DNA of 64,000 bases. Origin: Escherichia phage Es2. Positions 2,753 through 64,000 of the stretch are shown in pieces. The notes under the pieces were generated by a model. The model was not told the DNA's origin, searched no databases, and saw nothing but the letters and a program-made list of their open reading frames with translations. Every line of letters begins with the position of its first letter. Within the stretch, counting starts at the first letter, position 1. The stretch lies in the sequence record OR515477.1; one strand, 5' to 3'. The position numbers and the translations under genes are program-made.

Positions 2753-3061
2753 CTAGGCATTCTTGGCTTTGAGTTCTTCAGCTCGTTTCTGTACTTCATG
2801 TAAAACCTCAGATTCGCTAAGAATCTGTGTAAACGCATAGAAAAGCTGTGATGTTGTTTCTAGAGTGTAAGGAAAAGAGAAGCCAGATTTCGTTGGAAAC
2901 CATTCATCATTAATATCAAGAAGCCAGTAACGAATACCCATGTATAGATTCCCACGAAATTCAGATACTGTTAATCTTACTTGTTCCCCCTCCTTCTCCC
3001 AAAGTATGATGGACTGGTCATCAACGTGTCCTTCATAGTTTTGATTTACCTGTTCGCTCAT
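2753..3061 (-). CDS. hypothetical protein
   Basis: Six-frame ORF, 102 aa, preceded by early-type promoter on minus strand. Confidence 0.5.
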   Translation of the reverse strand: MSEQVNQNYEGHVDDQSIILWEKEGEQVRLTVSEFRGNLYMGIRYWLLDINDEWFPTKSGFSFPYTLETTSQLFYAFTQILSESEVLHEVQKRAEELKAKNA

Positions 3062-3080
3062 TTACATATCCCAAATACAC

Positions 3081-3101
3081 AAAAAGCCCCATATAGGGGC
3101 T
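3081..3101 (-). terminator. rho-independent terminator (minus strand)
   Basis: Reverse complement AGCCCCTATATGGGGCT followed by TTTTT. Confidence 0.55.
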
Positions 3102-3111
3102 AATTGGTTTC

Positions 3112-3408
3112 TTATCGGCCTACTGGAGAAGCACGATCTAACTCTGATTGGAGGCTAGTCACACGACGGACTTTCTCGACAGGAATAAAACGGAAGCTAT
3201 CATTAGTACGAGAGAAGACAAGGATCTCATCATCTTTCGCTTTACGAATACGTTCACGTTTAATACGCTCAGCTAGATATTTATCCTGGGCTGGATCAAA
3301 TTCCATAGTACCCTGAAGGTACGTGGTTCCTTTCTGACGAAGTTTCTCGTAATGAAGATAAAACTCACCAAATTTTTCACATTGTGCAATAATTTCAGCT
3401 TTGGTCAT
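3112..3408 (-). CDS. hypothetical protein
   Basis: Six-frame ORF, 98 aa; followed by minus-strand hairpin terminator. Confidence 0.5.
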   Translation of the reverse strand: MTKAEIIAQCEKFGEFYLHYEKLRQKGTTYLQGTMEFDPAQDKYLAERIKRERIRKAKDDEILVFSRTNDSFRFIPVEKVRRVTSLQSELDRASPVGR

Positions 3409-4222: not shown

Positions 4223-4895
4223 GTTTCAGGGCAGCCTTAACAGCTTCGTTAATCAACGTAATAACTTCTTCACGAGTCCACTTGTACCCCAGTGATTTTA
4301 CGTCAACTCCTAACTTTTCCAGGTGTTTAACAGAAGCCAGCTCATAATTCATATAATGAACGTTCTGTTGTTTGCCTTCCGATAGAAGCCATACGCGGTA
4401 ACAACCAACAGGGTTATCCATTGCTTTTTTGATTTCACCGATACACTGGTATCCAGGAACCCAGACAAGTTCTCCAACCTCAAATTCTTCTGCTACAGCA
4501 TCATCAGGAATAATTGGTGGATTCAATGGATCTACAATATCATTCAAACGAAGCAGAGCGCCATAGCGCTCCAGAACAGATTTAACCATTGCTACAGAGC
4601 GATAATTACGATCAGCAATCTCCTCAAAGGAATCACCAGATAGATACTGTTCAATAACGTTGGCTAACTCGATGCCTTCAATGAGTGTGCCACGTTTCTT
4701 TTTCTTCATTTCGGCAACTTGAATCTGGCGGTCTTGCCATTCCTCAATCATCCTTTCCATAGTTGGATTGGATGATACGCCGAGCATTTCACATGCTGCT
4801 TTCTTAGTACCACCGTTCTCCAGGTGCTCTATAACCTTTTTAAAGACTTCATCTGGGATTTCATGAATGTGTTTCTTTCTGCGAGAACCAGCCAT
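4191..4895 (-). CDS. putative HTH DNA-binding protein
   Basis: 234 aa; N-terminal HTH-like segment (GGTKKAACEMLGVSSNPTMERMIEEW); sits directly downstream of a PN25-like promoter. Confidence 0.5.
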   Translation of the reverse strand: MAGSRRKKHIHEIPDEVFKKVIEHLENGGTKKAACEMLGVSSNPTMERMIEEWQDRQIQVAEMKKKKRGTLIEGIELANVIEQYLSGDSFEEIADRNYRSVAMVKSVLERYGALLRLNDIVDPLNPPIIPDDAVAEEFEVGELVWVPGYQCIGEIKKAMDNPVGCYRVWLLSEGKQQNVHYMNYELASVKHLEKLGVDVKSLGYKWTREEVITLINEAVKAALKLDKEKGKRRE

Positions 4896-48023: not shown

Positions 48024-48613
48024 TGAAGGTTAAATTCTGGTCAGACTTGCACTTAGACCACCCTGGAGCACTACGTTTCCGTCCGTGGTTTAAGAACATG
48101 AAAGAGCACGATGAGTATATTCTAGATACTTTATCCAAGCATATTGGTAAACGAACAAAACTTATTTTGCTAGGAGATATTGCAGTAGGTCGTGAAGGTC
48201 TGGCCAAATTAAAGTCGGTTATCCACAATGTCCCTAATCAACTCATTATGGGTAATCATGATGCGGAGCGTCAAGGACTGAGTATTAGGGACTTAGCGGA
48301 AGTTTATGACGATATTCAAGCTCTAGGCAAACAGACTGGAGGTGGCAAAAAGTTTTGGCTATCTCACTGCCCTTTGCACCCTAATGAACTTCGTGGCAAA
48401 CTAAATATTCACGGACATGTACATACTACTTCTTTACGTGATCCACGTTATATTAATGTCTCATTTGAAATGAGTAGAACTCCAATTCCACTAGAGGATA
48501 TTGTGTCTGGTAAGTTTACTAGTTACGATAGAGTGGTTAATTGTACTACCGGCGAGGTATTACAAATAGGAGAAGACGTAGCTGCTGTATTGCGTGGCGA
48601 TATAAATGTCTAA
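48020..48613 (+). CDS. calcineurin-like metallophosphoesterase (second copy)
   Basis: LGDIAVGREG, GNHD and HGHVH motifs. Confidence 0.6.
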   Translation: MMKVKFWSDLHLDHPGALRFRPWFKNMKEHDEYILDTLSKHIGKRTKLILLGDIAVGREGLAKLKSVIHNVPNQLIMGNHDAERQGLSIRDLAEVYDDIQALGKQTGGGKKFWLSHCPLHPNELRGKLNIHGHVHTTSLRDPRYINVSFEMSRTPIPLEDIVSGKFTSYDRVVNCTTGEVLQIGEDVAAVLRGDINV

Positions 48614-48721
48614 GTATATAGCTAGGGCTATTATTAAACGAATTATACAAGTGATAGCAATACTTATAGTTATTTGTATTGCCATTGGCACAGGACTAGG
48701 CATTTTAATTAAAAGTTTTAT

Positions 48722-48750
48722 TTGCTAAAATGCCTAAATTTCTGTATAAT
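48722..48750 (+). promoter_or_regulatory. early-type sigma70 promoter
   Basis: TTGCTA, 17 bp, TGTATAAT. Confidence 0.6.
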
Positions 48751-53822: not shown

Positions 53823-54532
53823 TTAAAGAAGCCGAAAAATTAAAACGTCTCATCCAGCTAGCGCGGGGTGCTACACAAAAGAGTCTTTCCCAGCTAACTA
53901 ATGAAGAAAAATATGCAGTAATGTTTTTAGGAGATCATTATCCTGCTAGGTGGGATAAAGGTAAGATCAAGTATGATCGTGATGCAAAACAAGTTGTTTG
54001 GTCAGGCTCATATGTAGAAGTGAATAAAGCATTAAAGGCTTTAGATCCTGAAGCAAAAGGTTTCTCTTCTAATGCTATTCATATTCTAATTGATGAAGAT
54101 CTCCCAAGATTTAAGGAAGCATCATTTAAAGAAGCATTAGCTAGTGAAGATCTTATTCCTTTTAAACACGGTAAGTATGCACATCTTCCACCACTAGAAA
54201 AAGAGAAACCTACTCTAGTTAAAGATGAAGTTTATCGTGGGATTGGCACAATGCTAGCGAGTTTGACTGTAGCTCTCCATAAAGATCTAGAGTTAACGCC
54301 CCTAGAAAACGCTGTGCATTTCATGTGCCATAAGTACGAGGATACATTTAAAGAGCTATGTAAGTCGCTAGGAATGCCAAGTTACACGATATTAAACTAT
54401 GCTCCTGAATATACTAGAGCAGCTCGTGGAACTATGGATTACGATGATACAGGATCCACTGCTTCCTATTTAGCAACTTATATCTACTTCGCATCCTTAG
54501 GTATCAAACTCAAATCCAAGAAGGAGGAATAA
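53819..54532 (+). CDS. hypothetical protein
   Basis: 237 aa ORF; last gene before the repeat region. Confidence 0.5.
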   Translation: MIKEAEKLKRLIQLARGATQKSLSQLTNEEKYAVMFLGDHYPARWDKGKIKYDRDAKQVVWSGSYVEVNKALKALDPEAKGFSSNAIHILIDEDLPRFKEASFKEALASEDLIPFKHGKYAHLPPLEKEKPTLVKDEVYRGIGTMLASLTVALHKDLELTPLENAVHFMCHKYEDTFKELCKSLGMPSYTILNYAPEYTRAARGTMDYDDTGSTASYLATYIYFASLGIKLKSKKEE

Positions 54533-54547
54533 AAGTTAACAAAAAGT

Positions 54548-54576
54548 TCTTGCATTCTCATACCCAAACATGTTAT
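54548..54576 (+). promoter_or_regulatory. sigma70-like promoter (TTGCAT, 17 bp, TATAAT)
   Basis: ttcTTGCATtctcatacccaaacatgtTATAATaatc. Confidence 0.5.
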
Positions 54577-54582
54577 AATAAT

Positions 54583-54750
54583 CTCATAGATTAACAACTA
54601 CTCTAGTTGATTAACTCTAGGGGCGATGATTATTACACGAATGTCTCGTATAGCTTGCGGCCTAGCAACAGCGGTATGACGGCATGAGTACTCACGTAAT
54701 TAATCACGCGCCCACAGGAGAGACTCTCATGAAATTGGGGGTCTCTTTTT
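54583..54750 (+). ncRNA. candidate small RNA unit (promoter to terminator, no ORF)
   Basis: Bounded by promoter 54548-54576 and hairpin AGAGAC...GTCTCT plus TTTTTCTTT (~54713-54750); internal inverted repeat TTAACAACT...AGTTGATTAA. Confidence 0.35.
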
Positions 54751-55042
54751 CTTTATATTATTTAAATATTTTTAATGGCAATATCTGTGTTCAAGATGAT
54801 ACACCTGTTGCCGCTCATCTGCTAGGATGGCACAACACTTTCTTCTAGACTCCTAAGTTTCTAGGAATAGTTGAGCACTAACTCTAGAGTTTACATTAAA
54901 CTTTAAATCTGTTTCTCTAGTCAACTCAGGCGGTTTTCATATTCCTAGAAACTCTAGCAATAGGCGGTTAATACAGGGCGGTTTTAGGGAGGGCGGTTAT
55001 TTCTAGAAGACATTTTTTGAAAACACATTTCTAGAAATTACT

Positions 55043-55643
55043 GTCGTATTTGCACACTGCATTTCTAGAAATTTATGGTCGGATTTGCACAAACGCCTAA
55101 GTTTTTAGGAACATATAATCTCTTGAAAATGGCAGCATTATTTCGGGCCGAAGGCCCGTGATTGCCTGAGTTTTTAGAGCCACAAGAATTTTCACTTGTC
55201 AAGCTATTTTGCCCCATTTAGCAAATAAAATTTTACTTTATCTCCTCTAATCTCAAATTAACCCAAATCTTCTCAACTCTTCCCCAAAATACCCGCAAAT
55301 CAGGTGCTCCGCACCAAACATGCGCCTCTCCCACAGTTCCCCCAAAATTTCTCTCGCTCTCTCAACTTCTCCCCAAACATACACAATCACACACCCTCCA
55401 ATCGAAGCCACAAAAATCTTGTCGGATTCGCACATCTTAATCCTAGAAAAACCGTGTCGGATTTGCACATACCCCACAGGATTCGAACGCAGTTCGAGAT
55501 TGCTGGAGTTTTTAGGAAAATTCATTGTCGGATTCGCACACTATAAAAATTTTTCGGGTCGGATTTGCACACTACCAAAAATTGTCGGATTCGCACATAC
55601 ACGCCCGCACGTAACACCCGTGGAGCAATGTCGGATTTGCACA
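55043..55643 (+). repeat. eight dispersed copies of a 14 bp motif GTCGGATT(T/C)GCACA
   Basis: Copies at about 55043, 55078, 55421, 55456, 55527, 55558, 55584 and 55630; interspersed TTCTAGAA palindromes and GGCGGTT repeats. Confidence 0.7.
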
Positions 55644-55646
55644 AAA

Positions 55647-55668
55647 GCGCAGGGCAATTGCCCTGCGC
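55647..55668 (+). repeat. perfect palindrome GCGCAGGGC-AATT-GCCCTGCGC
   Basis: 9 bp arms with 4 nt centre; read directly. Confidence 0.8.
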
Positions 55669-55669
55669 T

Positions 55670-55900
55670 AAATGAGAATAAAAATAAGAATCATTCTCAT
55701 TTAGAAAGCGGAATGAGAATGATAATAATTCGCATTTAGAAAGCGAAATGAGAATCAATCTCATTTAAGAACGGAAACGAAAATTATTCAGGAAGTGAAA
55801 CGATTCTCATTTAGAAAGTGGAATGATTCTCATTTAGAAAGTGGAATGCAAATGATAATGATTCGCATTTAAGAATGGAAGTGAGAAACACTGTTATTTA
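55670..55900 (+). repeat. tandem ~28-30 bp direct repeats (CTCATTTAGAAAG[CT]GGAATGA-like), about 6 units
   Basis: Repeated ATTCTCATTTAGAAAGCGGAATGAGAATGA-like units with variants; no ORF. Confidence 0.7.
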
Positions 55901-56010
55901 AGTTATCCACAGACTTATCAACAGCACGATTTGACTTGACAAAATTCTAGCCATTTTGAGGCGTTATCAACAGACTTATCAACAGCTTATCCTACTGTAT
56001 AAATATACAG
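55881..56010 (+). repeat. left composite inverted repeat (IR-A and IR-B) with DnaA-box-like TTATCCACA
   Basis: IR-A 55881-55918 is 37/38 identical to the reverse complement of 59205-59242; IR-B 55971-56010 is 38/40 identical to the reverse complement of 59113-59152. Confidence 0.75.
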
Positions 56011-56207
56011 TATTCCTATGCAGTGAATAATTCTAATATACAGCTAAAACGCTCTCAAACGCATTCTAACGCGTTTAATTTTGGTGGGGATACTAAAACA
56101 CGGGCAAAATTGGAGGAGGCTTAGAAATTAGTTAGCTCGCTAACGATCACACAAGGCGACACGTAACATCCTAACCATTAGCAGGCTAACCATCGCGGGC
56201 GCGGTCA

Positions 56208-56228
56208 AATGAGAATGATTCTCATTTG
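56208..56228 (+). repeat. palindrome AAATGAGAAT-G-ATTCTCATTT
   Basis: 10 bp perfect arms; same half-site as the 55670-55900 repeats. Confidence 0.75.
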
Positions 56229-56378
56229 AGAATTGGGGGCACTTCCTGATAGTTGCGCCCCGTGATTATTACAGTAGTGGGCAACCTTTACGCTTTGCCC
56301 ATTCCCGCCACTCATCTTGATGTCTAGACTTGCGACGGCGTACTAAAAACCATTTATACCAGTGATTAAACCATCGTT

Positions 56379-56582
56379 TCATAAATCCTCCTCCGGTAGT
56401 CGGTGCGTGATTTTTTCCTCCTCTCCGTAGGAATCCACTAAATGCTGATAATAACCATCGTGATCATAAATCACTTTATCATATTCGCCACGCTCGACCG
56501 CTTGTCGGTTTTCCGGCGTATCTGGCACGTAAAAAACATCAACCATTGTACTGATTTTGGTTACAACAATTTTATTGCTCAT
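56379..56582 (-). CDS. hypothetical protein
   Basis: 67 aa; last gene of the inverted-repeat-bounded block; GGAG RBS. Confidence 0.45.
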   Translation of the reverse strand: MSNKIVVTKISTMVDVFYVPDTPENRQAVERGEYDKVIYDHDGYYQHLVDSYGEEEKITHRLPEEDL

Positions 56583-56607
56583 AATAACGCTCCGTTATTA
56601 TATAATC

Positions 56608-56952
56608 TCATTGTGCCACCTTTCGAAACGCTGTTTCAATACTTTCCGCAGTTGACTGAATATACGCGCCTTTCATGATCAGGCGCTCAGTGCATACCTT
56701 ACGGAAGATATTAATAAAATCATCTTCATTTTCTGCAATTAACGCTTCACCCATAACCTGAACGTCACAAGATGCAAAGGTCAAAAATTGAAACGCTAGT
56801 TCACGGGCAACGACCTCATTGATTTTATAATGCGCCTTGCCCTCATAAATATTAATAACGCCCTTATATGTTGGGGAAAGCTGATTTAAATAATTTGCTA
56901 ATAATGCTGGGCGGCAATTAGCAATAAAACGATTGCCTTCATAAATAACCAT
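56608..56952 (-). CDS. hypothetical protein
   Basis: Start MVIYEGNRF after GGGAGG; 114 aa. Confidence 0.5.
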   Translation of the reverse strand: MVIYEGNRFIANCRPALLANYLNQLSPTYKGVINIYEGKAHYKINEVVARELAFQFLTFASCDVQVMGEALIAENEDDFINIFRKVCTERLIMKGAYIQSTAESIETAFRKVAQ

Positions 56953-57079
56953 TTGACAGCCTCCCAATTAGATAGCCAGATAATAACATAAAGATCCCCA
57001 ATGAAAGGGGGTCATTTTTAAATAGGGTGGCGGTAAAACCGCCAGCCATTGCAAGGATGATAACAATAACGCTTTTCAT
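56942..57079 (-). CDS. small hydrophobic peptide
   Basis: 45 aa (MKSVIVIILAMAGGFTATLF...), ATGA coupling to the upstream gene; below track cutoff. Confidence 0.35.
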
Positions 57080-57288
57080 AGTACCCCACGAAACGCAGCG
57101 TAAAAGGTGGCAAAATGTTTAACTGTTTCAGCTATCACGTTGCCGCGCTTGTCAAATTTCTTTTCTGTAACACGAAAGGCATTCTTATTACGTGCTACAT
57201 ATTCAATTTTACAATCTTCCCGCTCGAACGTGTTAACATCCACCAGCTTAAAGCCTTTCGAACGTGCAAGAGAAACATTGCGGATCAT
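57076..57288 (-). CDS. hypothetical protein
   Basis: 70 aa; AGGAGAATAA RBS. Confidence 0.5.
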   Translation of the reverse strand: MIRNVSLARSKGFKLVDVNTFEREDCKIEYVARNKNAFRVTEKKFDKRGNVIAETVKHFATFYAAFRGVL

Positions 57289-57290
57289 TT

Positions 57291-57446
57291 TTATTCTCCT
57301 TTACTAGTCATGCAGCCCAGCAGATAAGAAAATGCAGCGATACCCGCGCCAATAATAACCGCGTGAACACCGAAAGCTATTGCAAAAAGGGATAAAATAG
57401 CGCCCAAGATACCTGCTAGAATAGCTCGAAAAATAACCATTTTCAT
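57291..57446 (-). CDS. small hydrophobic peptide
   Basis: 51 aa (MKMVIFRAILAGILGAILSLFAIAFGVHAVIIGAGIAAF...), GGAGA RBS; below track cutoff. Confidence 0.35.
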   Translation of the reverse strand: MKMVIFRAILAGILGAILSLFAIAFGVHAVIIGAGIAAFSYLLGCMTSKGE

Positions 57447-57486
57447 TCTCCTAGTTTGCGGGGCGAAAGTAACGCCCCGTTATTAC

Positions 57487-57717
57487 TTACATTAAAACAA
57501 TTTTTGCCGCTTGTTTTTTAGTACAGTGTTCCGCTTTCAGGGTATCCAGCAAAAAGCCGGCCGTTTGCTGATCGATTTTATCGGCGTTGTATAGTTCTTG
57601 GATGGTGTTATAAGTTTTAGCAATGCCGAACTCCTGCACCATTTCATGAATGATGGCGCGATTAGATACCCAGCCTTGCGCGGTGAACAGATGACTAGCA
57701 GAAGAATAAGCAACCAT
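57487..57717 (-). CDS. hypothetical protein
   Basis: Start MVAYSSASH after GGAGGT; 76 aa. Confidence 0.5.
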   Translation of the reverse strand: MVAYSSASHLFTAQGWVSNRAIIHEMVQEFGIAKTYNTIQELYNADKIDQQTAGFLLDTLKAEHCTKKQAAKIVLM

Positions 57718-57781
57718 TTTAAACCTCCAAATTTTTGGGAAAATTTTCAACCGTCCTCAAACGGTGTAAAGGCATTATAAC

Positions 57782-57810
57782 AAAAAAGGTCGCCATAAAA
57801 GGCGACCTTT
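57782..57810 (-). terminator. rho-independent terminator (hairpin usable on both strands)
   Basis: AAAGGTCGCC-ATAAAA-GGCGACCTTT with A/T runs on both sides. Confidence 0.65.
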
Positions 57811-57835
57811 ACAAAACTTTACATTAGATTATTTA

Positions 57836-58846
57836 TTACTCGTTTTCGGTGTTAGTGGTAAAAGTAGAAATATCGATACCTTTTACCATTTCATCAATCA
57901 TTTCAGCGATGTTAAAACTTTGCACCATTTCCAACATTGCCGCTTCCATAGCTGCCCCTGCTACCGCTTTCGCTTTCTGGTTGCTTGGGGCATACTGGTC
58001 AACCGCTACGCTCAGCAGGTTGGCAATTACTACTCGACCGATAGGCGTATCAATATAACCTTTAATCATGAACGGTGCTTTTTTAGCCGCTACTTTCGTA
58101 ATTTGAGTCAGTGCAATTTTACCCGCTTCCAGTTTTGCAGCGTTTACAACGGCGGATTTATTAGCGGCAACGATGTTAGCAATCTTGGTCATGGTATTTT
58201 TTCCTTTATTTTCAGTGATTTGAGTATTAACGCTTTGAGTGTTAGAATTTACAGCATGGTTTTCTACGCTGTCAATAATCTGATCTTCATCTTTCCAGAA
58301 AGAAAAACCAGCGCTTTCTATATCCCCATCATAAATATACGGGTATAGCTCCCGTGGTAACAAAAAATTACCGTCGCCATCAAAAGCCATTATACCGGTA
58401 TATTGAGATCCGTCGTTATCCGGCTTATACCATCCAGCGGGTAAATACTTCCAGATAACATCTAAAAATCCCTCAATGCTAGAAAGTCCATTTATCAGAT
58501 CAAGCCCAATAAGCTCAAAACCATTTATATTAAATGATTGACGGCCTGAATTGCTATGATACGCAACAATAGTATTGCCCTGCGCAACAATAAAATCGGT
58601 ATCCGGCCCCGCTCCCCTGCCCGTAAAGATATGGCAATCCCGATTATGTAAAACTAGCGTTGCCCCTTGCTTATATAAGGGTAGAAAACTATCCATATCA
58701 TAGGCGTCATATTCATCAAAAAAGTTTTGATGAATAGTTTCAACCTTGTTAATAAAATGTTTAATGCTGGTTGACTTGCTACCGTCCAGCAGGTTACGCA
58801 ATGCACCTTTTAAGACGGTTGCGTTATCTGGTTTATAAAGCCTCAT
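57836..58846 (-). CDS. hypothetical protein (336 aa)
   Basis: AGGAGG RBS; GC-richer codon usage than the surrounding phage genes; no recognisable motif. Confidence 0.55.
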   Translation of the reverse strand: MRLYKPDNATVLKGALRNLLDGSKSTSIKHFINKVETIHQNFFDEYDAYDMDSFLPLYKQGATLVLHNRDCHIFTGRGAGPDTDFIVAQGNTIVAYHSNSGRQSFNINGFELIGLDLINGLSSIEGFLDVIWKYLPAGWYKPDNDGSQYTGIMAFDGDGNFLLPRELYPYIYDGDIESAGFSFWKDEDQIIDSVENHAVNSNTQSVNTQITENKGKNTMTKIANIVAANKSAVVNAAKLEAGKIALTQITKVAAKKAPFMIKGYIDTPIGRVVIANLLSVAVDQYAPSNQKAKAVAGAAMEAAMLEMVQSFNIAEMIDEMVKGIDISTFTTNTENE

Positions 58847-59112
58847 TTGTTCGGCCTCCTCGTTAATCGGTGAGTGAATGATAAAGGTATTTTCTTTCTA
58901 GGGGCAAATATTATTTTACCTTTTTATTTTCTTTGCCTAACTCCTAGTTTTATGCTAATCGCGCAGCGGTACAGTAAAGAGCAAAACACGGCGAAGCCAC
59001 CAGGGCGACGGGTGAAGGCTTTACTTTAATATTACCCCACTGCATTTAGCTCGTTAGAAAGCGATTTAGGCCGCTTAAAATTGATTGCAGTTGTTAACAC
59101 TACCTTTTTACC

Positions 59113-59242
59113 CTGTATATTTATACAGTAGGATAACCTGTGGATAAGTCTGTGTAAAAGTCCTTATATCGCCGCCTATCATGTCAAGTTATTTTACAAA
59201 ATGTATAAGTCTGTGGATAACTTAAATAATAGTGTTTCTCAC
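59113..59242 (+). repeat. right composite inverted repeat (IR-B' and IR-A') with two TGTGGATAA DnaA-box-like sites
   Basis: Reverse-complement match to 55881-56010. Confidence 0.75.
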
Positions 59243-59410
59243 TAACTAATTTATGCAGTTATTATATCGTAAAATATAGTTAGTTGGCTAATAGGATTTT
59301 AAAGTGATTATGAGTCCGCTAATTAAACCTGAAAAACTCATTAGCTAGTCTGCTAATCATTTTGATATAATATAATAGAGATTAAATTAATAACATAAGG
59401 AAACAATTAG

Positions 59411-59929
59411 ATGCCTAAATATAAACATATAGATTATGACCTTTTTAATAGTTACTTTTATTATGATGAAACATCGTTATCATTTTTACGCTGGCGAGAA
59501 GATCATGCCATCGCTGGTGGTTTAAATGGTAATTATTGGCAAGTTGAATTATTAGATAAAGGACAATTCAAAGTACATAGAATTATTTTTTGTATAATGA
59601 ATGGTGGTATAGATAGCGAGCTAATGATTGATCATATTGATCGTAACCCCCGTAATAATAACATTTGGAATCTTCGCGCGGTTGATAGTTCCCAGAATAA
59701 CTATAATAAGACTCCTAGTGAGTATGAAAACTATAAGCGTGCTAATGGTATCCCTAGAAACATTTACGTTAATAAAATTCGCCCCCGTGATAGTTTCGGG
59801 CGTGATTATTTAACTGCTCAAATTAAGAATCCTATTACTAACAAGCGTGTTAGTAAGTCTGGTTATGATTTACAAGAGTTATTATTATGGCTTGAAGCTA
59901 AAAAAGCTGAATTCGGAATTGTCAATTAA
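59411..59929 (+). CDS. HNH endonuclease
   Basis: DHIDRNPRNNNIWNLRAV HNH motif; AAGGAAAC RBS. Confidence 0.65.
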   Translation: MPKYKHIDYDLFNSYFYYDETSLSFLRWREDHAIAGGLNGNYWQVELLDKGQFKVHRIIFCIMNGGIDSELMIDHIDRNPRNNNIWNLRAVDSSQNNYNKTPSEYENYKRANGIPRNIYVNKIRPRDSFGRDYLTAQIKNPITNKRVSKSGYDLQELLLWLEAKKAEFGIVN

Positions 59930-60875
59930 TTTATTTTATAAATTAACTCGTTTAGTCTTGATTTTTAAAAGTCAAGACCTTTTTCAACTATTTTTCAATT
60001 TTGCGGTTGTTAAATATTTGTTAAACCGAAAATAAGCCGCCTAAAACGCCCCAGAACGCGATGAAAGTTTTAGTCATGCCATTGCATTGCCTACCCTCGT
60101 TTATCGCTACCACGAGCTTTTTAGATTTTGTCAAGTAGGGGAAAGCAAATATAAATGAAAAAATTACTTGCCTATCTGCTATGTTTTGTGGTATTCACGC
60201 GCCCGTTTCTTTTAATTTTAGTGTGCCGCGCCCTAGTCGCCGCACGCCGTCCGGTGAATCGTGTCTTTACGTTTCTTTACAAAAATAAGGTTGCGCCATT
60301 TTCGGGAATCCCCTATTATTTATCACGTAGGGCGGCAATGACGAACTACACGGCGGGAAGTTTACCGCCACGCTCTTTAAAAATTGGGTATATCTTAAAG
60401 CCTATCGGCGGTAAACTTATTCATTATAAGGAATCGACGATATGAAACAAACGCTTTTGATAACTGGTAAACCAGCTAAAAAATTAGATGGTACTACTAA
60501 AAAATTGTTGACAGTAGCGCAAAGATCCATAAGATATAGATTCACGCAGTACAAGAAAGGCCGCCAGCAAGGTTTAGAAATGATCTGGCGAAATATTATG
60601 ATTGACCTGAAAGAAAATCATAAAAAACTGCAAAAAATTGTTTGACACCCTAGCCGATAGGCTTTAAGATGTACCCAGTTCGATGAGAGCGATAACTTGA
60701 TACAATTTGACGGTCGGTGCTTACCATAATGCATCCCGCCCCCTAACTGGGATATAGCGGCCTGAGTGGAGTTCTTTAAATTGATTATAATGGCGAGCGG
60801 ATTGTTACTTATTACCTGCTACTATTTTCTAGTAGGTAATGCGAAACAATCCCCTAAATAACTGGAGTTTATACT

Positions 60876-61127
60876 ATGCAAAACGTTACTAATGCGCCGA
60901 AAATTGGTCAATCCGTTTTTATCCCTTTCGTTACCAAAACGGATGAATTAACCGGAAAAGCCGAACGTATTAAAGGTGCGGCGCTTATGCCGTTCGATAC
61001 AATCGACGCGGTATACGCTGAAAATGAACGCAGTAACAACGGCAAGCCGATTTATAACGTTCGCGTTAAATCCGGCGACGTTGTAAAGGTTGTTCAACGC
61101 AACGAAAAATGGGAAGCTGTACTGTAA
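60876..61127 (+). CDS. hypothetical protein
   Basis: 83 aa ORF with TGGAG RBS. Confidence 0.5.
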   Translation: MQNVTNAPKIGQSVFIPFVTKTDELTGKAERIKGAALMPFDTIDAVYAENERSNNGKPIYNVRVKSGDVVKVVQRNEKWEAVL

Positions 61128-61225
61128 TCTAGTGTTAACTTTATATTCCCCTGAAATATGGGGAATATAACGATTAACATTAGTTAATCATAATCCCTTA
61201 AATTAAACTAATAGGAGTTTATATC

Positions 61226-61633
61226 ATGACTAACGCAAAAACCGCAAAATTCGCATGGAATGAAGAAAACACCCAAAAAGCTGTTACCATGTACCAGCAG
61301 TTAATCAACGAAAACGGTTTAGATTTCGCAAATAGTGACGGGCTGAAAGAGATTGCAAAAGCAGTAGGCGCGGCTTCTCCCGTATCCGTTCGCTCAAAAT
61401 TGACCAGTGCAAAAGCCTACCAGAAAAGCGATAAGCCGCGTAAAGTTGGCGGCGGCAGTTCTGTACGCAAAGCGCATTATGTGCGTGTTATTGCTAAACA
61501 TGCCATTGATTCCGGCATTATCAAAGACGCTGACGATCTGGCATCACTGGAAAGTGCAAAACTTGAAACGCTGGACGCGGTAGCGCAATTGCTAGGCGTT
61601 GCCGATGAAGTGAAACAAGCCGCAGGCGAATAA
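61226..61633 (+). CDS. hypothetical protein
   Basis: 135 aa ORF with AGGAG RBS. Confidence 0.5.
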   Translation: MTNAKTAKFAWNEENTQKAVTMYQQLINENGLDFANSDGLKEIAKAVGAASPVSVRSKLTSAKAYQKSDKPRKVGGGSSVRKAHYVRVIAKHAIDSGIIKDADDLASLESAKLETLDAVAQLLGVADEVKQAAGE

Positions 61634-61722
61634 TAGTTATACATTGCCCTTCCTAGTGGGAGGGCAATAATATAACTGTTTAGCGATAGTTATTTTCTTC
61701 CCTTAAATCAGGAGTTTTAAAA

Positions 61723-61920
61723 ATGATTTTCTTTCCTACTGAATCATTAATTTTAGGCTTGTTTATTATGGCGGCCTCATTATTGTTCGCTTATTTTCAA
61801 AATGATTTAGATTCATATTATTTTAAACGTAAATCTAAGTTAGCAAAGCGTTTAGGTCTGATTTGTTTTATTGCCGCCGTTGCTTGTGGTGTTAGTTCTA
61901 GCCTTATGCCTTTAAATTAA
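61723..61920 (+). CDS. small membrane protein
   Basis: 65 aa, two hydrophobic segments. Confidence 0.45.
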   Translation: MIFFPTESLILGLFIMAASLLFAYFQNDLDSYYFKRKSKLAKRLGLICFIAAVACGVSSSLMPLN

Positions 61921-62016
61921 TGTTGCAAATTATAACGCCTATTATTCAAGGCGTTATATTTGGCAATATTTGCCAATAACAAACGTTTTTTAATCCCTTT
62001 AATGGAGTTTATTACT

Positions 62017-63681
62017 ATGATTATTTCCGCAGAAAAACAAACCGTTATCCTGAAAATGGCCGCTGACTTTAATTTCTATGGTAAACGTCTGCGCGCCACT
62101 AAACTGGAGGTCTGCGACGATATATCAAAAGCGGTCTACGATACAACAAAACACTCGACCGCCATTTGTGATTGGCTGGAAGCAAATAAACCAGTTAAAC
62201 CAAAAGCTGCAAAAGTAGCAAAAGCTATTAAAAACGATGAGCGCCCCGAAGCGGCTGGGATCGTTTCTAGCACGGTTGAACAGTGGGAAGTAAAACAAGG
62301 CAAACGCTTTATTATTACGTCGATTCAGAATAATACTTTCCCGCATAAAAACTTTTTGGCCTCGCTTGAACAGTATGCTAAATACATCGGCGCTGATTTG
62401 CTTGTTTCTAAGTATATTTATAATAAAAACGGCTTCCAAAATGGTGAAGGTGCGGATGGAATCAAATATGATTCCGCGTTCGATAAGTATATTTGCAGCA
62501 AAAACGTGTTTTTAAACAACCGCCGTTTTGCTTTCATGGCTGAAATTAACGTTTTGCCTACCGCAGATTATCCGCTTTCTGGATTCGCTGAAACTGCAAC
62601 GGCGCTTAATCTTGAAGGTCTGGCAATTGGTCACGCTAAAATCACCGCCGAAAGCGTGCCAGCTTTAAAAGGTGAAGTAGTACGCCGCATGTACTCAACC
62701 GGAACGGCAACGCTAAAAAACTACATTCAGCAGAAAGCAGGGCAAAAAGCGGAAGCGCTGCATAACTTCGGTGCGCTGATTGTTGAGTTCGACGAAGACG
62801 GTGAGTTTTTTGTACGCCAGCTTGAAACAATGGACGAAAGCGGGGTGTTTTATGATCTGAATGTTTGCGCTACTCCCGCAGGATGCTATGAAACATCGGG
62901 GCATGTTTTAGGTTTACAATATGGCGACATCCACGCAGAAAAATTAGATGATGATTGTGCCGTTGCGTCATGGGCTGGCGAAAATAGCTTGCTTGATATT
63001 CTTAAACCAAAATATCAGTTTATCCATGACGTTCACGATTTTACATCTCGCAATCATCATAATCGTGCGTCCGGTGTATTCCTAGCGAAACAGTACGCCG
63101 CCGGACGTGATAAAGTTCTGGATGATCTTATCGATACGGGGCGCGTGCTGGAATCAATGGAACGTGATTTTAGTCAAACGATCATTGTTGAATCGAATCA
63201 CGATTTGGCGCTATCCCGTTGGCTGGATGATCGTAATGCTAACATTAAAGACGATCCAGCAAACGCCGAACTATATCACCGCCTGAATGCTGCAATTTAC
63301 GCGGCAATCGGTGAACACGACGAAACGTTTAACGTGTTAGATTATGCGCTGCGCAAGGTTGCAGGTTGCGAGTTTAACGCCATTTTCCTAACAACTGACC
63401 AATCATTTAAAATTGCAGGCATCGAGTGTGGCGTACACGGTCACAACGGCATTAACGGAAGCCGTGGCAATCCTAAACAGTTTAAGAAATTGGGCAAACT
63501 GAACACGGGGCATACGCATACGGCAAGCATTTACGGCGGGGTATACACCGCTGGCGTGGCTGGTAGTCTGGACATGGGTTACAACGTTGGCGCGTCAAGC
63601 TGGACGCAAACGCATTTAATTACCTATGCAAACGGTCAGCGCACTTTGATTGACTTTAAAAACGGTAAATTCTTTGCGTAA
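62017..63681 (+). CDS. A1: A1-like pre-early protein with calcineurin-like phosphoesterase motifs
   Basis: GDIHAE, ESNHD, GHNG and GHTHT metallophosphoesterase motifs; size ~554 aa; gene symbol assigned by analogy to T5 A1 from memory. Confidence 0.5.
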   Translation: MIISAEKQTVILKMAADFNFYGKRLRATKLEVCDDISKAVYDTTKHSTAICDWLEANKPVKPKAAKVAKAIKNDERPEAAGIVSSTVEQWEVKQGKRFIITSIQNNTFPHKNFLASLEQYAKYIGADLLVSKYIYNKNGFQNGEGADGIKYDSAFDKYICSKNVFLNNRRFAFMAEINVLPTADYPLSGFAETATALNLEGLAIGHAKITAESVPALKGEVVRRMYSTGTATLKNYIQQKAGQKAEALHNFGALIVEFDEDGEFFVRQLETMDESGVFYDLNVCATPAGCYETSGHVLGLQYGDIHAEKLDDDCAVASWAGENSLLDILKPKYQFIHDVHDFTSRNHHNRASGVFLAKQYAAGRDKVLDDLIDTGRVLESMERDFSQTIIVESNHDLALSRWLDDRNANIKDDPANAELYHRLNAAIYAAIGEHDETFNVLDYALRKVAGCEFNAIFLTTDQSFKIAGIECGVHGHNGINGSRGNPKQFKKLGKLNTGHTHTASIYGGVYTAGVAGSLDMGYNVGASSWTQTHLITYANGQRTLIDFKNGKFFA

Positions 63682-63735
63682 TTAAATTATTACCCTAGCG
63701 GCTTGAAATACAGCCGCTATTATAGGAGTCAAAAA

Positions 63736-63993
63736 ATGAAAGTTACATTACCCAAAACATTAGACGAAAAAGCGTTTATTTCCCCCGATGAAATGGAATC
63801 CGATAAAGTTTACAGCTTCGGGCCTATCCTAGCCGCCAAAACTAATACTGATGGAATTATTACAGTCGATTATCGTGATAATGATATTGTTCCCTTTGAC
63901 GATGATGACGCTTTTTACGAGTGGTTAAGCGATAATAATTTACCCGTAAGTGGTGAATTAACGCCGTATCAGATGCAAATCATTATCAAATAA
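63736..63993 (+). CDS. hypothetical acidic protein
   Basis: Start MKVTLPKT with AGGAG RBS; 85 aa. Confidence 0.45.
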   Translation: MKVTLPKTLDEKAFISPDEMESDKVYSFGPILAAKTNTDGIITVDYRDNDIVPFDDDDAFYEWLSDNNLPVSGELTPYQMQIIIK

Positions 63994-64000
63994 TTTAAAT

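What the first reader, a model, noticed from the sequence alone, without database searches (positions are those of the whole stretch)
56942..57446. Small hydrophobic peptide genes joined to neighbours by ATGA overlaps inside the IR-bounded block
Two ORFs of about 45-51 aa (56942-57079 and 57291-57446, minus strand), each essentially a single TM helix, are interleaved with 70-114 aa soluble-protein ORFs by overlapping stop and start codons. This resembles membrane-toxin/antitoxin or exclusion modules.
Basis: inference. Interest (0 to 1): 0.4.

Follow-up and report, generated by a model that had tools for sequence, protein, structure and literature searches.

The report
Small membrane-protein genes in T5-like phage
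The two small hydrophobic ORFs are real, conserved genes for two-helix membrane mini-proteins in the pre-early (first-injected) operon of a T5-like phage; one is the ortholog of T5 gene 013, already reported to lyse E. coli when over-expressed, and they are optional accessory genes, not toxin-antitoxin pairs.

Summary
The window is a T5-like phage (Tequintavirus). The finding lies in its terminal repeat, in the pre-early operon orthologous to T5.011-T5.017.

Both ORFs exist and are under purifying selection (median dN/dS 0.14 and 0.23).
- The upstream peptide (57291-57446; conserved start 57440, 49 aa) is the ortholog of T5 gene 013. That gene is dispensable, and one of two published studies found it toxic and lytic on induction.
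- The downstream peptide (56939-57079, 46 aa; phrog_19184) is absent from T5. tblastn finds it in 159 phage records; the neighbouring 70-aa gene is in 436.

- Each peptide is predicted as a two-helix hairpin, not a single TM helix.
- Only one of the three junctions is an ATGA overlap. The others are a 2-nt gap and a 14-nt overlap.

The toxin-antitoxin reading is not supported. The peptides and their soluble neighbours do not co-occur obligately. The site between the 70-aa and 114-aa genes holds zero, one or two small membrane-peptide genes from three families that share no evident sequence similarity.

Most likely they are accessory inner-membrane host-takeover or exclusion factors. Function was not shown here.

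Side result: the "Ung-dependent endonuclease" label on the 70-aa gene looks like an off-by-one transfer. The published nickase is the 114-aa gene.

Interest is low to moderate.

The parts
57291..57446 (-). Upstream peptide ('pepA'), the ortholog of T5 gene 013. It is 51 codons from the first ATG. The conserved start is the second ATG at 57440, giving 49 aa: MVIFRAILAGILGAILSLFAIAFGVHAVIIGAGIAAFSYLLGCMTSKGE. Its last codons (AAA GGA GAA TAA) form the Shine-Dalgarno sequence of the next gene.
   Evidence: ORF and sequence. phrog_5607 at E 1.2e-31, matching residues 3-51. Aligned with T5.013 (59 aa, with a longer loop). Found in 367 phage records. dN/dS 0.14. AF2 two-helix model, pLDDT 77.
56939..57079 (-). 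Downstream peptide ('pepB'), 46 aa: MKSVIVIILAMAGGFTATLFKNDPLSLGIFMLLSGYLIGRLSNGYL. It is an optional cassette that T5 itself lacks. The conserved core ends at GRL (41 aa), and the GGG AGG codons act as the Shine-Dalgarno sequence for the 114-aa gene.
   Evidence: ORF. phrog_19184 at E 1.6e-29. Found in 159 phage records. Only two 50%-identity clusters among 1.84 billion representatives, both resembling the variants seen in T5-like loci. dN/dS 0.23. AF2 hairpin, pLDDT 90. Absent from T5.
57076..57288 (-). 70-aa soluble, basic protein, 100% identical to T5.014 (called 'ORF015' in another T5 record). Function unknown. RefSeq and PHROG label it 'Ung-dependent endonuclease', probably in error.
   Evidence: Found in 436 phage records. 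dN/dS 0.07.
56608..56952 (-). 114-aa protein, the ortholog (93% identity) of T5.015. T5.015 is the published Ung-dependent AP-site nickase and is toxic to E. coli. Its start overlaps the end of pepB by 14 nt.
   Evidence: Numbering in Mahata 2021 and Annor 2026 follows NC_005859. The UniRef name for this sequence is 'DNA-(apurinic or apyrimidinic site) endonuclease'.
57487..57717 (-). T5.012 ortholog (76 aa from the ATG), the first gene of the sub-operon after the terminator.
57458..57480 (-). Conserved G+C-rich stem-loop (ACGGGGCG ttacttt CGCCCCGC) between the T5.012 ortholog and pepA. It has no U-tract. Relatives show compensatory stem changes (GGGGCG/CGCCCC versus GGGGGAT/ATCCCCC).
   Evidence: The compensatory changes were read from the sequences, not tested statistically.
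57774..57782 (-). Extended -10 promoter-like element TGTTATAAT, immediately after the terminator. It is a candidate promoter for the T5.012-to-T5.017 sub-operon.
   Evidence: Read from the sequence. The BF23 record annotates a predicted pre-early promoter at the equivalent place. Not tested.
57785..57810 (-). Intrinsic-terminator-like hairpin with a T-run, after the T5.011 ortholog. T5 annotates a terminator at the equivalent place.
57836..58846 (-). T5.011 ortholog (336 aa), the first gene of the right-arm pre-early transcription unit. Reported toxic in T5.
   Evidence: Literature.
56379..56582 (-). T5.017 ortholog (67 aa), 25 nt downstream of the 114-aa gene. In relatives this gap holds further small genes.
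56269..56382 (-). 37-aa basic, aromatic ORF (MKRWFNHWYKWFLVRRRK...) joined to the T5.017 ortholog by an ATGA overlap.
   Evidence: Annotated in two relatives. tblastn finds it in T5 and 6 other loci.
55880..56010 (.). Left arm of the ~131-bp inverted repeat with DnaA boxes (T5 IRD'-spacer-IRC' equivalent), at the edge of the injection-stop region.
   Evidence: I1, I2, I11. Described for T5-like phages in the Davison preprint.
59113..59243 (.). Right arm of the same inverted repeat (T5 IRC-spacer-IRD equivalent). Together with the left arm it bounds the 3.1-kb block that contains the operon.

Best explanation
WHAT IT IS
- Both ORFs are genuine, separately translated cistrons of the right-arm pre-early operon of a T5-like phage. 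This operon lies in the first ~8% of the genome, which enters the cell first.
- Each encodes a 41-49-residue inner-membrane protein made of two hydrophobic helices joined by a tight turn.
- The upstream one is the ortholog of T5 gene 013.
- The downstream one belongs to a small family confined to T5-like phages. It is one of at least three interchangeable peptide-gene families found at the site between the T5.014-type and T5.015-type genes. It carries the ribosome-binding site of the next gene in its own last codons, and the two alternative cassette families have a similar purine-rich stretch there. That would keep translational coupling whichever cassette is present.

HOW IT MOST LIKELY WORKS (inferred)
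- The peptides are made within minutes of first-step DNA transfer and insert into the host inner membrane.
- Through their glycine/alanine-rich helix faces they self-associate or bind host membrane proteins.
- This perturbs membrane integrity or a membrane-bound host function, as a non-essential, strain-dependent host-takeover or exclusion activity.
- At high dose this is lethal or lytic.
- They are not toxin-antitoxin modules.

SHOWN HERE
Gene reality, orthology, predicted two-helix architecture, junction anatomy, optional and interchangeable distribution, purifying selection.

TAKEN FROM PAPERS
Pre-early expression, dispensability, and toxic/lytic phenotype of T5 013.

INFERRED
Membrane insertion, oligomerisation or target binding, and the biological role.
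For: - Location: the window matches 530 phage records, mostly T5-like (Salmonella, Escherichia and Klebsiella phages), and the locus falls in their terminal repeat.
- Gene order matches T5.011-T5.017.
- Family matches: phrog_5607 and phrog_19184.
- Purifying selection: dN/dS 0.14 and 0.23.
- Invariant motifs: FKxDP and GYLxGRL-like in pepB, GAGIA and FSYLLG in pepA.
- AF2 hairpin models.
- Shine-Dalgarno sequences embedded in the peptide C-termini, and coupled junctions in every cassette type.
- Nine architectures in 34 distinct operons, with 0-2 cassettes from three families and both B-C and C-B orders.
- Counts of phage records: 436 (70-aa gene), 367 (pepA), 159 (pepB), 48 (pepC), 37 (pepD).
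- A second variable site downstream in relatives holds more small hydrophobic genes.
- pepB diverges 7-9 times faster than its flanks at non-synonymous sites between genera.
- Literature on T5 013: two predicted TM domains, toxic and lytic on induction, and dispensable.
- Pre-early genes of the relative Bas33, including the 013 and 014 homologues, are highly transcribed.
Against: - No experiment addresses the 46-aa family.
- Mahata et al. 2021 did not see toxicity for T5.013, so the lytic phenotype may be an over-expression artefact of a hydrophobic peptide.
- In the Bas33 RNA-seq table, the 41-codon ORF at the same site has an expression value of 1.6, against about 540-590 for its neighbours. 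This is probably a read-assignment artefact for a 126-nt gene but is unexplained.
- Membrane insertion and topology are predictions only.
- Conservation of the C-terminal residues may reflect the embedded ribosome-binding sites rather than protein function.
- The loci compared are related to one another, so counts of architectures are not independent events.
Confidence: 0.6

Rival explanations
1. Specific exclusion or anti-defence factors. Each mini-protein binds a particular host or defence-system membrane component, for example a DNA-entry channel used by competing phages or a transmembrane abortive-infection effector. It blocks that component during the pause after first-step transfer. Toxicity on over-expression would be a side effect. 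This overlaps with the main explanation and differs in claiming a specific protein target rather than general membrane perturbation.
For: - Presence/absence polymorphism and swapping among families with no evident sequence similarity at fixed sites.
- Fast amino-acid divergence of pepB relative to its flanks.
- Pre-early timing and dispensability in a laboratory strain.
- From general knowledge: small early inner-membrane proteins such as T4 Imm act this way.
Against: - No sequence or fold similarity to any known exclusion or anti-defence protein.
- No target is known.
- Hydrophobic helices tolerate many substitutions, so fast divergence need not mean an arms race.
Confidence: 0.27
2. Toxin-antitoxin-like pairs. 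Each hydrophobic peptide is a membrane toxin neutralised by the adjacent soluble protein, or the reverse. The pairs would be kept together by overlapping genes.
For: - Small hydrophobic peptides next to small soluble proteins, with coupled translation.
- T5 013 is toxic in one study and T5 015 is toxic in two.
- The ghost-cell phenotype of 013 recalls the GhoT toxin (general knowledge).
Against: - Partners do not co-occur. The 70-aa and 114-aa genes persist without pepB in T5 and in at least 14 of 34 operons, and without pepA in 4 of 34.
- Peptide families with no evident similarity substitute for one another.
- T5.015 toxicity is explained by Ung-dependent nicking and needs no membrane partner.
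- T5.014 was not toxic in either study.
- No match to Hok, TisB, Ldr, GhoT, GhoS or antitoxin families.
- No known antisense RNA family at gathering score.
- The host is a virulent phage, where addiction has no obvious role.
Confidence: 0.03
3. Mainly translational linkers. The ORFs persist because their translation delivers ribosomes and a Shine-Dalgarno sequence to the downstream gene, notably the toxic nickase gene. The peptide products themselves would have little function.
For: - The last codons of each peptide form the next gene's Shine-Dalgarno sequence.
- Junctions are overlapping or nearly so in every variant.
- The pepB tail beyond GRL varies freely with junction type.
Against: - Purifying selection acts along the whole peptide, including invariant FKxDP turn and glycine positions far from the junctions.
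- T5-type genomes couple the 70-aa and 114-aa genes directly, without any linker.
- All alternative cassettes are hydrophobic helices, which a pure linker would not require.
Confidence: 0.07

Closest known systems
Bacteriophage T5 pre-early gene 013 (T5.013, YP_006841; phrog_5607)
   Same: The upstream peptide is its ortholog.
- It occupies the same position between the T5.012 and T5.014 orthologs.
- It has the same N- and C-terminal helices, with 65-67% identity in tblastn alignments that count the 10-11-residue loop gap.
- It shows the same coupling to the next gene.

T5 013 is predicted to have two TM domains, is dispensable, and is toxic and lytic on induction in one study.
   Different: The window's version lacks the 10-11-residue inter-helix loop (IQDSYCGLVNTKP in T5 versus GVH here). 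Among the homologues aligned the short form is the commoner one. Toxicity of the short-loop form has not been tested.
phrog_19184, annotated as 'hypothetical protein' in phages such as BF23 (BF23_00015), SPC35, SP76 and EC148 (present but unannotated in DT57C)
   Same: The downstream peptide matches over its full length (E 1.6e-29) and sits at the same site, between the T5.014 and T5.015 orthologs.
   Different: Nothing is known about this family. It is absent from T5, so none of the T5 genetic or toxicity screens covered it.
Small membrane toxins of bacterial toxin-antitoxin systems (type I Hok, TisB, Ldr; type V GhoT)
   Same: Similar size (about 30-60 aa) and hydrophobic helices. They kill or lyse cells when over-produced. 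GhoT also has two TM segments and gives ghost cells, like the published 013 phenotype. The comparison rests on general knowledge.
   Different: - No sequence-family match.
- No antisense RNA or dedicated antitoxin found.
- Not a stand-alone locus; it sits inside a phage operon.
- No obligate partner.
Class II holins and pinholins (for example phage 21 S68)
   Same: Two transmembrane helices with small-residue faces, a short charged C-terminus, and lytic or depolarising action when expressed. This is a resemblance drawn from general knowledge.
   Different: - Shorter than typical class II holins.
- Expressed pre-early, not late.
- Not next to an endolysin.
- Dispensable for plaque formation.
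- No holin-family match.
Early-expressed phage inner-membrane exclusion proteins (for example T4 Imm)
   Same: Small, early-expressed, membrane-embedded and non-essential. This is a resemblance drawn from general knowledge.
   Different: No sequence or fold similarity was detected. Exclusion activity is untested. The known T5 exclusion factor is the lipoprotein Llp, which is encoded elsewhere.

Membership tests
T5 gene 013 family (phrog_5607) | Full-length sequence match to the family profile | tested here: met
   E 1.2e-31, residues 3-51 against profile positions 1-49 of 49. Aligned with T5.013 and 26 database homologues.
T5 gene 013 family (phrog_5607) | Position between the T5.012 and T5.014 orthologs in the terminal-repeat pre-early operon | tested here: met
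T5 gene 013 family (phrog_5607) | Two transmembrane segments | tested here: met
   Hydropathy profile. AF2 helices 2-23 and 27-47. This is a prediction only.
T5 gene 013 family (phrog_5607) | Toxic or lytic on ectopic expression; dispensable for infection | not testable with these tools
   Reported for T5 013 by Annor et al.. Not seen by Mahata et al..
phrog_19184 (46-aa peptide family) | Full-length sequence match to the family profile, and position between the T5.014 and T5.015 orthologs | tested here: met
   E 1.6e-29, residues 1-46 against 1-46 of 46. Synteny in 19 further distinct operons.
Type II toxin-antitoxin module | Two adjacent genes that are inherited together as an obligate pair | tested here: not met
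   Either peptide can be absent, or replaced by a family with no evident similarity, while the soluble neighbours persist.
Type II toxin-antitoxin module | Recognisable toxin or antitoxin domain | tested here: not met
   No Pfam or NCBIfam match for the peptides or for the 70-aa and 114-aa proteins, even at E <= 10.
Type I toxin-antitoxin (Hok/Sok, TisB/IstR, Ldr/Rdl) | Small hydrophobic toxin belonging to a known family | tested here: not met
   The peptides are hydrophobic and small, but match no such family.
Type I toxin-antitoxin (Hok/Sok, TisB/IstR, Ldr/Rdl) | Antisense or overlapping regulatory RNA with its own promoter | tested here: inconclusive
   No Rfam family near gathering score in 54000-64000. 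No plus-strand promoter-like site within the peptide genes in the simple scan. A novel antisense RNA cannot be excluded.
Type V GhoT/GhoS | GhoT-family peptide with an adjacent GhoS RNase antitoxin | tested here: not met
   No match to either family. The resemblance is limited to size, two TM segments, and the published ghost-cell phenotype of T5 013.
Class II holin / pinholin | Two TM domains | tested here: met
   (prediction).
Class II holin / pinholin | Late expression within a lysis cassette next to an endolysin; required for lysis | tested here: not met
   The genes lie in the pre-early terminal repeat, between genes with no lysis-related annotation or family match. T5 mutants lacking 011-017 are viable. 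No holin-family match.
Phage superinfection-exclusion membrane proteins (T4 Imm type) | Sequence or fold membership | tested here: not met
   No Pfam match. BFVD fold search gave only E > 1 matches to uncharacterised hairpins.
Phage superinfection-exclusion membrane proteins (T4 Imm type) | Blocks DNA entry of a superinfecting phage | not testable with these tools
   Requires infection assays.
Bacterial lipoprotein (considered for the upstream peptide because of the conserved LLGC) | N-terminal signal peptide ending in a lipobox with an invariant Cys, followed by a mature domain | tested here: not met
   The LLGC lies 6-7 residues from the C-terminus, after two hydrophobic helices. The Cys is Tyr in 2 of 27 homologues.

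The most novel reading that the evidence does not exclude
The junctions around the T5.014/T5.015 genes, and the next junction downstream, may be dedicated cassette sites. At these sites T5-like phages would exchange mini-membrane proteins from families with no evident mutual similarity. At least three such families occupy the first site, and further small hydrophobic ORFs sit in the upstream slot and at the second site. Each family at the first site supplies a purine-rich ribosome-binding stretch for the next gene. Together they would form a rapidly evolving, strain-specific set of inner-membrane effectors deployed during the first-step-transfer pause. They would neutralise membrane-based defences or shut out competing phages, making them a membrane counterpart of anti-defence gene islands.
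Probability: 0.18. Interest if true: 0.6.

Novelty: new member of a known kind. Interest (0 to 1): 0.25.

Why it matters
T5 injects 8% of its genome, pauses, and uses about 17 pre-early genes to take over the cell. Most of those genes still have no known function. This locus shows that the right-arm pre-early operon carries a variable set of tiny two-helix membrane proteins.

One of them (013) already has a published lytic phenotype. The others are untested because the model phage T5 lacks them.

This gives a concrete, cheap set of candidates for membrane-directed host takeover, exclusion or anti-defence in a phage group widely used for biocontrol. The candidates are pepB, pepC, pepD and the small hydrophobic ORFs at the downstream site.

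The side observation matters for annotation quality. The 'Ung-dependent endonuclease' label is being propagated onto the wrong (70-aa) protein across these phage records, via phrog_4227 and RefSeq.

The finding itself is ordinary for a compact phage operon. It is not a toxin-antitoxin system.

Tried and rejected
- **tblastn with the 49-aa peptide and with the 40-aa pepC peptide** returned nothing, presumably because BLAST's low-complexity filter masks these hydrophobic queries. I replaced these with blastn on the DNA.
I rebuilt the alignments from database hits.
- **Paralogy between the two peptides** is not supported. hhalign gave probability 10% over 26 columns.
- **Pfam and NCBIfam at E <= 10** gave only chance-level hits.
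- **Rfam at E <= 1** gave nothing near gathering scores.
- **Foldseek against BFVD** gave only E > 1 matches to uncharacterised viral hairpins. It is uninformative for peptides this small.
- **Lipoprotein idea for the conserved LLGC** was rejected.
- **A hairpin inside pepB** that scores as a plus-strand terminator (56993-57013) is a by-product of the D-P...L-G-I codons. It is not conserved in the divergent pepB type.
- **Davison's 2015 review** and the **supplement of Mahata 2021** are not held. I settled the 014/015 numbering from the gene lists in the two papers and from UniRef names.
- **Per-protein proteomics for Bas33** could not be read from the stored text.
- **'Every genome keeps at least one peptide next to the 70-aa gene'** holds in all 34 operons. 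It is not significant given only four pepA-less cases and related genomes.
Full report
**Where the finding lies.** Megablast of 55500-59500 hits 530 phage records at 80-95% identity. Most are T5-like phages of Escherichia and Salmonella. The locus falls inside the annotated long terminal repeat, which is the first-step-transfer DNA that enters the cell first. The window is in reverse orientation relative to T5 NC_005859, and 23 tRNA genes lie at 27-38 kb.

On the minus strand the gene order is as follows:

| Feature | Window coordinates | Size |
|---|---|---|
| T5.011 ortholog | 57836-58846 | 336 aa |
| Terminator-like hairpin | 57785-57810 | |
| T5.012 ortholog | 57487-57717 | 76 aa |
| Stem-loop | 57458-57480 | |
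| Peptide A (pepA) | 57291-57446 | 51 codons |
| T5.014 ortholog | 57076-57288 | 70 aa, 100% identical |
| Peptide B (pepB) | 56939-57079 | 46 aa |
| T5.015 ortholog | 56608-56952 | 114 aa, 93% identical |
| T5.017 ortholog | 56379-56582 | 67 aa |
| Small basic ORF | 56269-56382 | 37 aa |

The 'IR-bounded block' is real, with arms at 55880-56010 and 59113-59243 carrying TTATCCACA boxes. It corresponds to the 131-bp IRC-spacer-IRD / IRD'-spacer-IRC' repeats already described for T5-like phages.

**Checking the observation.** The two ORFs are there and are very hydrophobic, with GRAVY 1.58 and 1.10.

First, neither is a single helix.
- Peptide B has two hydrophobic stretches separated by FKNDP. 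AlphaFold2 on a 28-sequence alignment gives helices 2-19 and 24-42 at mean pLDDT 90.
- Peptide A has about 42 consecutive apolar residues broken at GVH. AlphaFold2 gives helices 2-23 and 27-47 at pLDDT 77.
- T5.013 is annotated with two transmembrane domains.

Second, only one junction is an ATGA overlap, namely 70-aa stop / peptide B start.
- Peptide A ends TAA, followed by 2 nt before the next ATG.
- Peptide B overlaps the 114-aa gene by 14 nt.
- A further ATGA joins the 67-aa and 37-aa ORFs.

Third, the conserved start of peptide A is the second ATG (57440, MVIF...). An AGGAG lies 7 nt upstream of it. Only some relatives have the MKM extension, and the PHROG profile begins at residue 3.

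**Are they genes?** Hydrophobic ORFs of this size arise by chance in this 39% GC genome. There are 99 ATG-ORFs of 40-65 aa across six frames, and 7 have GRAVY >= 1. Composition therefore proves little. Comparative evidence does.
- Each peptide has its own PHROG family: phrog_5607 at E 1e-31 and phrog_19184 at E 2e-29.
- Peptide A DNA is found in 367 phage records. Peptide B is found in 159. The 70-aa gene is found in 436.
- I used 36 loci from IMG/VR plus eight annotated GenBank loci. Across these, median pairwise dN/dS is 0.14 for peptide A and 0.23 for peptide B. The four neighbouring genes give 0.06-0.13.
- Invariant positions include the FKxDP turn, several glycines and GYLxGRL in peptide B. 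In peptide A they include ILGAIL, GAGIA and FSYLLG.

Both are therefore real protein-coding genes.

**Identity.** Peptide A is the ortholog of T5 gene 013. T5.013 is 59 aa, with the same two helices and a longer loop (IQDSYCGLVNTKP). Among the 26 database homologues aligned, the short-loop form seen here is the commoner one.

Peptide B has no counterpart in T5. There the 70-aa stop and the 114-aa start are separated by 2 nt. Its homologues, by word-indexed search of 5.8 billion proteins, carry only phage names where a source names them. An exhaustive profile search of 1.84 billion cluster representatives found just two clusters. Both sequences closely resemble variants seen in the T5-like loci: one is the Tequintavirus type, and the other resembles the roughly 50%-identical Epseptimavirus type.

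Neither peptide matches any Pfam or NCBIfam family. They are not detectably related to each other (hhalign probability 10%). Fold searches are uninformative.

**What the relatives show.** The site between the 70-aa and 114-aa genes is variable. It can be empty, as in T5, or hold one or two of these small genes:

| Cassette | Size and sequence | Predicted form | Phage records |
|---|---|---|---|
| Peptide B | 41-47 aa | two-helix hairpin | 159 |
| 'pepC' | 40-41 aa, MIQQIKTAFRFWGVLPSIGF... | one hydrophobic stretch | 48 |
| 'pepD' | 35 aa, MERAIVKMLTFVCGV... | one hydrophobic stretch | 37 |

- Two cassettes can occur together, in either order (B-C or C-B).
- The peptide A slot can be empty, or in one locus hold a different 31-aa hydrophobic ORF.
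- Among 34 distinct operon sequences there are nine architectures.
- Every cassette begins on or next to the upstream stop codon. Every cassette ends with a purine-rich stretch (GGGAGG, GGGAG or GAGGA) placed as the Shine-Dalgarno sequence of the next gene. Translational coupling is therefore preserved whatever is inserted.
- For the same reason, the KGE tail of peptide A (AAA GGA GAA) and the GRL of peptide B (GGG AGG YTR) are dual-use sequence.
- A second variable site, between the 114-aa and 67-aa genes, is empty (25 nt) in this window. In relatives it holds further small genes. Several are hydrophobic: 52-aa MKKFLIAGMF..., 53-aa MAVYIALLGY..., 45-aa MNSWWRK...LIIIILILGAMAL, and T5.016.
- Between this window and Epseptimavirus loci, peptide B has dN 0.36-0.38, while peptide A and the two flanking genes have 0.04-0.06.

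**What is published.**
- Mahata et al. [quoted passage not shown] They found 008, 011 and 015 toxic, but not 013.
- Annor et al. (bioRxiv 2026, using NC_005859 numbering) found seven toxic genes, including 013. Its induction gave a mixed population with shrunken, non-refractile, DAPI-negative cells. They attributed this to its two predicted TM domains.
- The same group showed that 011-017 are dispensable for infection in the laboratory.
- In the Tequintavirus Bas33, RNA-seq shows the pre-early genes are strongly transcribed. The 013 and 014 homologues score about 540-590, while the 41-codon ORF in the cassette site scores only 1.6. I cannot explain that value beyond a likely read-assignment artefact for a 126-nt gene.
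- No paper in the library mentions the peptide B family.

**Interpretation.** The toxin-antitoxin reading fails its main test. The supposed partners are not inherited together, and families with no evident similarity substitute for one another. No TA family, antitoxin domain or known antisense RNA is present. The neighbouring toxic gene already has a self-contained mechanism.

- I infer that they insert as hairpins.
- I infer that they use their small-residue helix faces to self-associate or to bind host membrane proteins.
- I infer that they thereby disturb membrane integrity or a membrane-bound function. At high dose this kills, as reported for 013.
- Whether the natural role is general perturbation, exclusion of other phages, or neutralising membrane-based defences cannot be decided here.
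- The cassette-like, fast-evolving distribution leans towards a strain-specific role.

**Side result.** RefSeq, PHROG phrog_4227 and many pharokka-style annotations call the 70-aa protein 'endonuclease nicking abasic sites generated by host uracil glycosylase Ung'.
- The papers' gene lists match the NC_005859 locus tags, in which T5.015 is the 114-aa protein.
- UniRef names the 114-aa sequence 'DNA-(apurinic or apyrimidinic site) endonuclease'. It names the 70-aa sequence 'ORF015', which is its name in another T5 record.
- The label has most likely slipped by one gene.

**Verdict.** This is an ordinary feature of a known phage operon. It carries a modestly interesting, apparently undescribed pattern of interchangeable mini-membrane-protein cassettes.

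Noticed in passing
window 57076-57288 (70 aa) versus 56608-56952 (114 aa): RefSeq NC_005859, phrog_4227 and many GenBank records attach the 'Ung-dependent AP endonuclease' label to the 70-aa T5.014-type protein. The papers' numbering and UniRef place that activity on the 114-aa T5.015 protein. The 70-aa protein is called 'ORF015' in another T5 record, so an off-by-one transfer is likely.
   Followed up: partly
window 57458-57480, minus strand: A conserved G+C-rich stem-loop without a U-tract lies between the T5.012 ortholog and the next gene. Relatives show compensatory stem changes (GGGGCG/CGCCCC, GGGGGAT/ATCCCCC, GGGGAT/ATCCCC). It stays in place even when peptide A is absent. It may be an RNA processing, stability or attenuation element.
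   Followed up: partly
window 56269-56382, minus strand: A 37-aa very basic, tryptophan-rich ORF (MKRWFNHWYKWFLVRRRKSRHQDEWREWAKRKGCPLL) is joined to the T5.017 ortholog by an ATGA overlap. It is annotated in two relatives. tblastn detects it in T5, where NC_005859 has no CDS and the stretch is counted as part of the injection-stop region.
   Followed up: partly
related loci, between the 114-aa and 67-aa genes (e.g. L004 about 3060-3230, L002 about 4390-4660, L027, L041); window 56583-56607 is the empty equivalent: This is a second variable site. It holds further small genes, several of them hydrophobic two-helix or tail-anchored peptides (52-aa MKKFLIAGMF..., 53-aa MAVYIALLGY..., 45-aa MNSWWRK...). 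It also holds small soluble ORFs of 31, 66 and 71 aa.
   Followed up: partly
Bas33 RNA-seq table (PMC13250531, Dataset S1), gene bas33_0173: The 41-codon ORF at the cassette site has an expression value of 1.6. Adjacent genes in the same operon have about 325-594. This is probably an artefact of assigning reads to a 126-nt overlapping gene, but it was not verified.
   Followed up: no
window 48560-48728, both strands: Another pair of small, very hydrophobic ATG-ORFs lies in the early region: 40 aa on the plus strand (GRAVY 1.77, MSKYIARAIIKRIIQVIAILIVICIAIGTGLGILIKSFIC) and 47 aa on the minus strand. The plus-strand one looks like a single-pass membrane peptide.
   Followed up: no
GenBank records ECOP18 (NC_105825) and STG2 (NC_048089), at the pepC cassette: The 40-aa pepC-type peptide, or its neighbour, is annotated 'iron ABC transporter permease' in some records. 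This is almost certainly a spurious name for a short hydrophobic ORF.
   Followed up: no
window 59411-59929, plus strand: An HNH homing-endonuclease gene (hegG / T5.010 type) sits just outside the right inverted-repeat arm, as in T5. According to the literature, most T5-like phages lack this insert.
   Followed up: no
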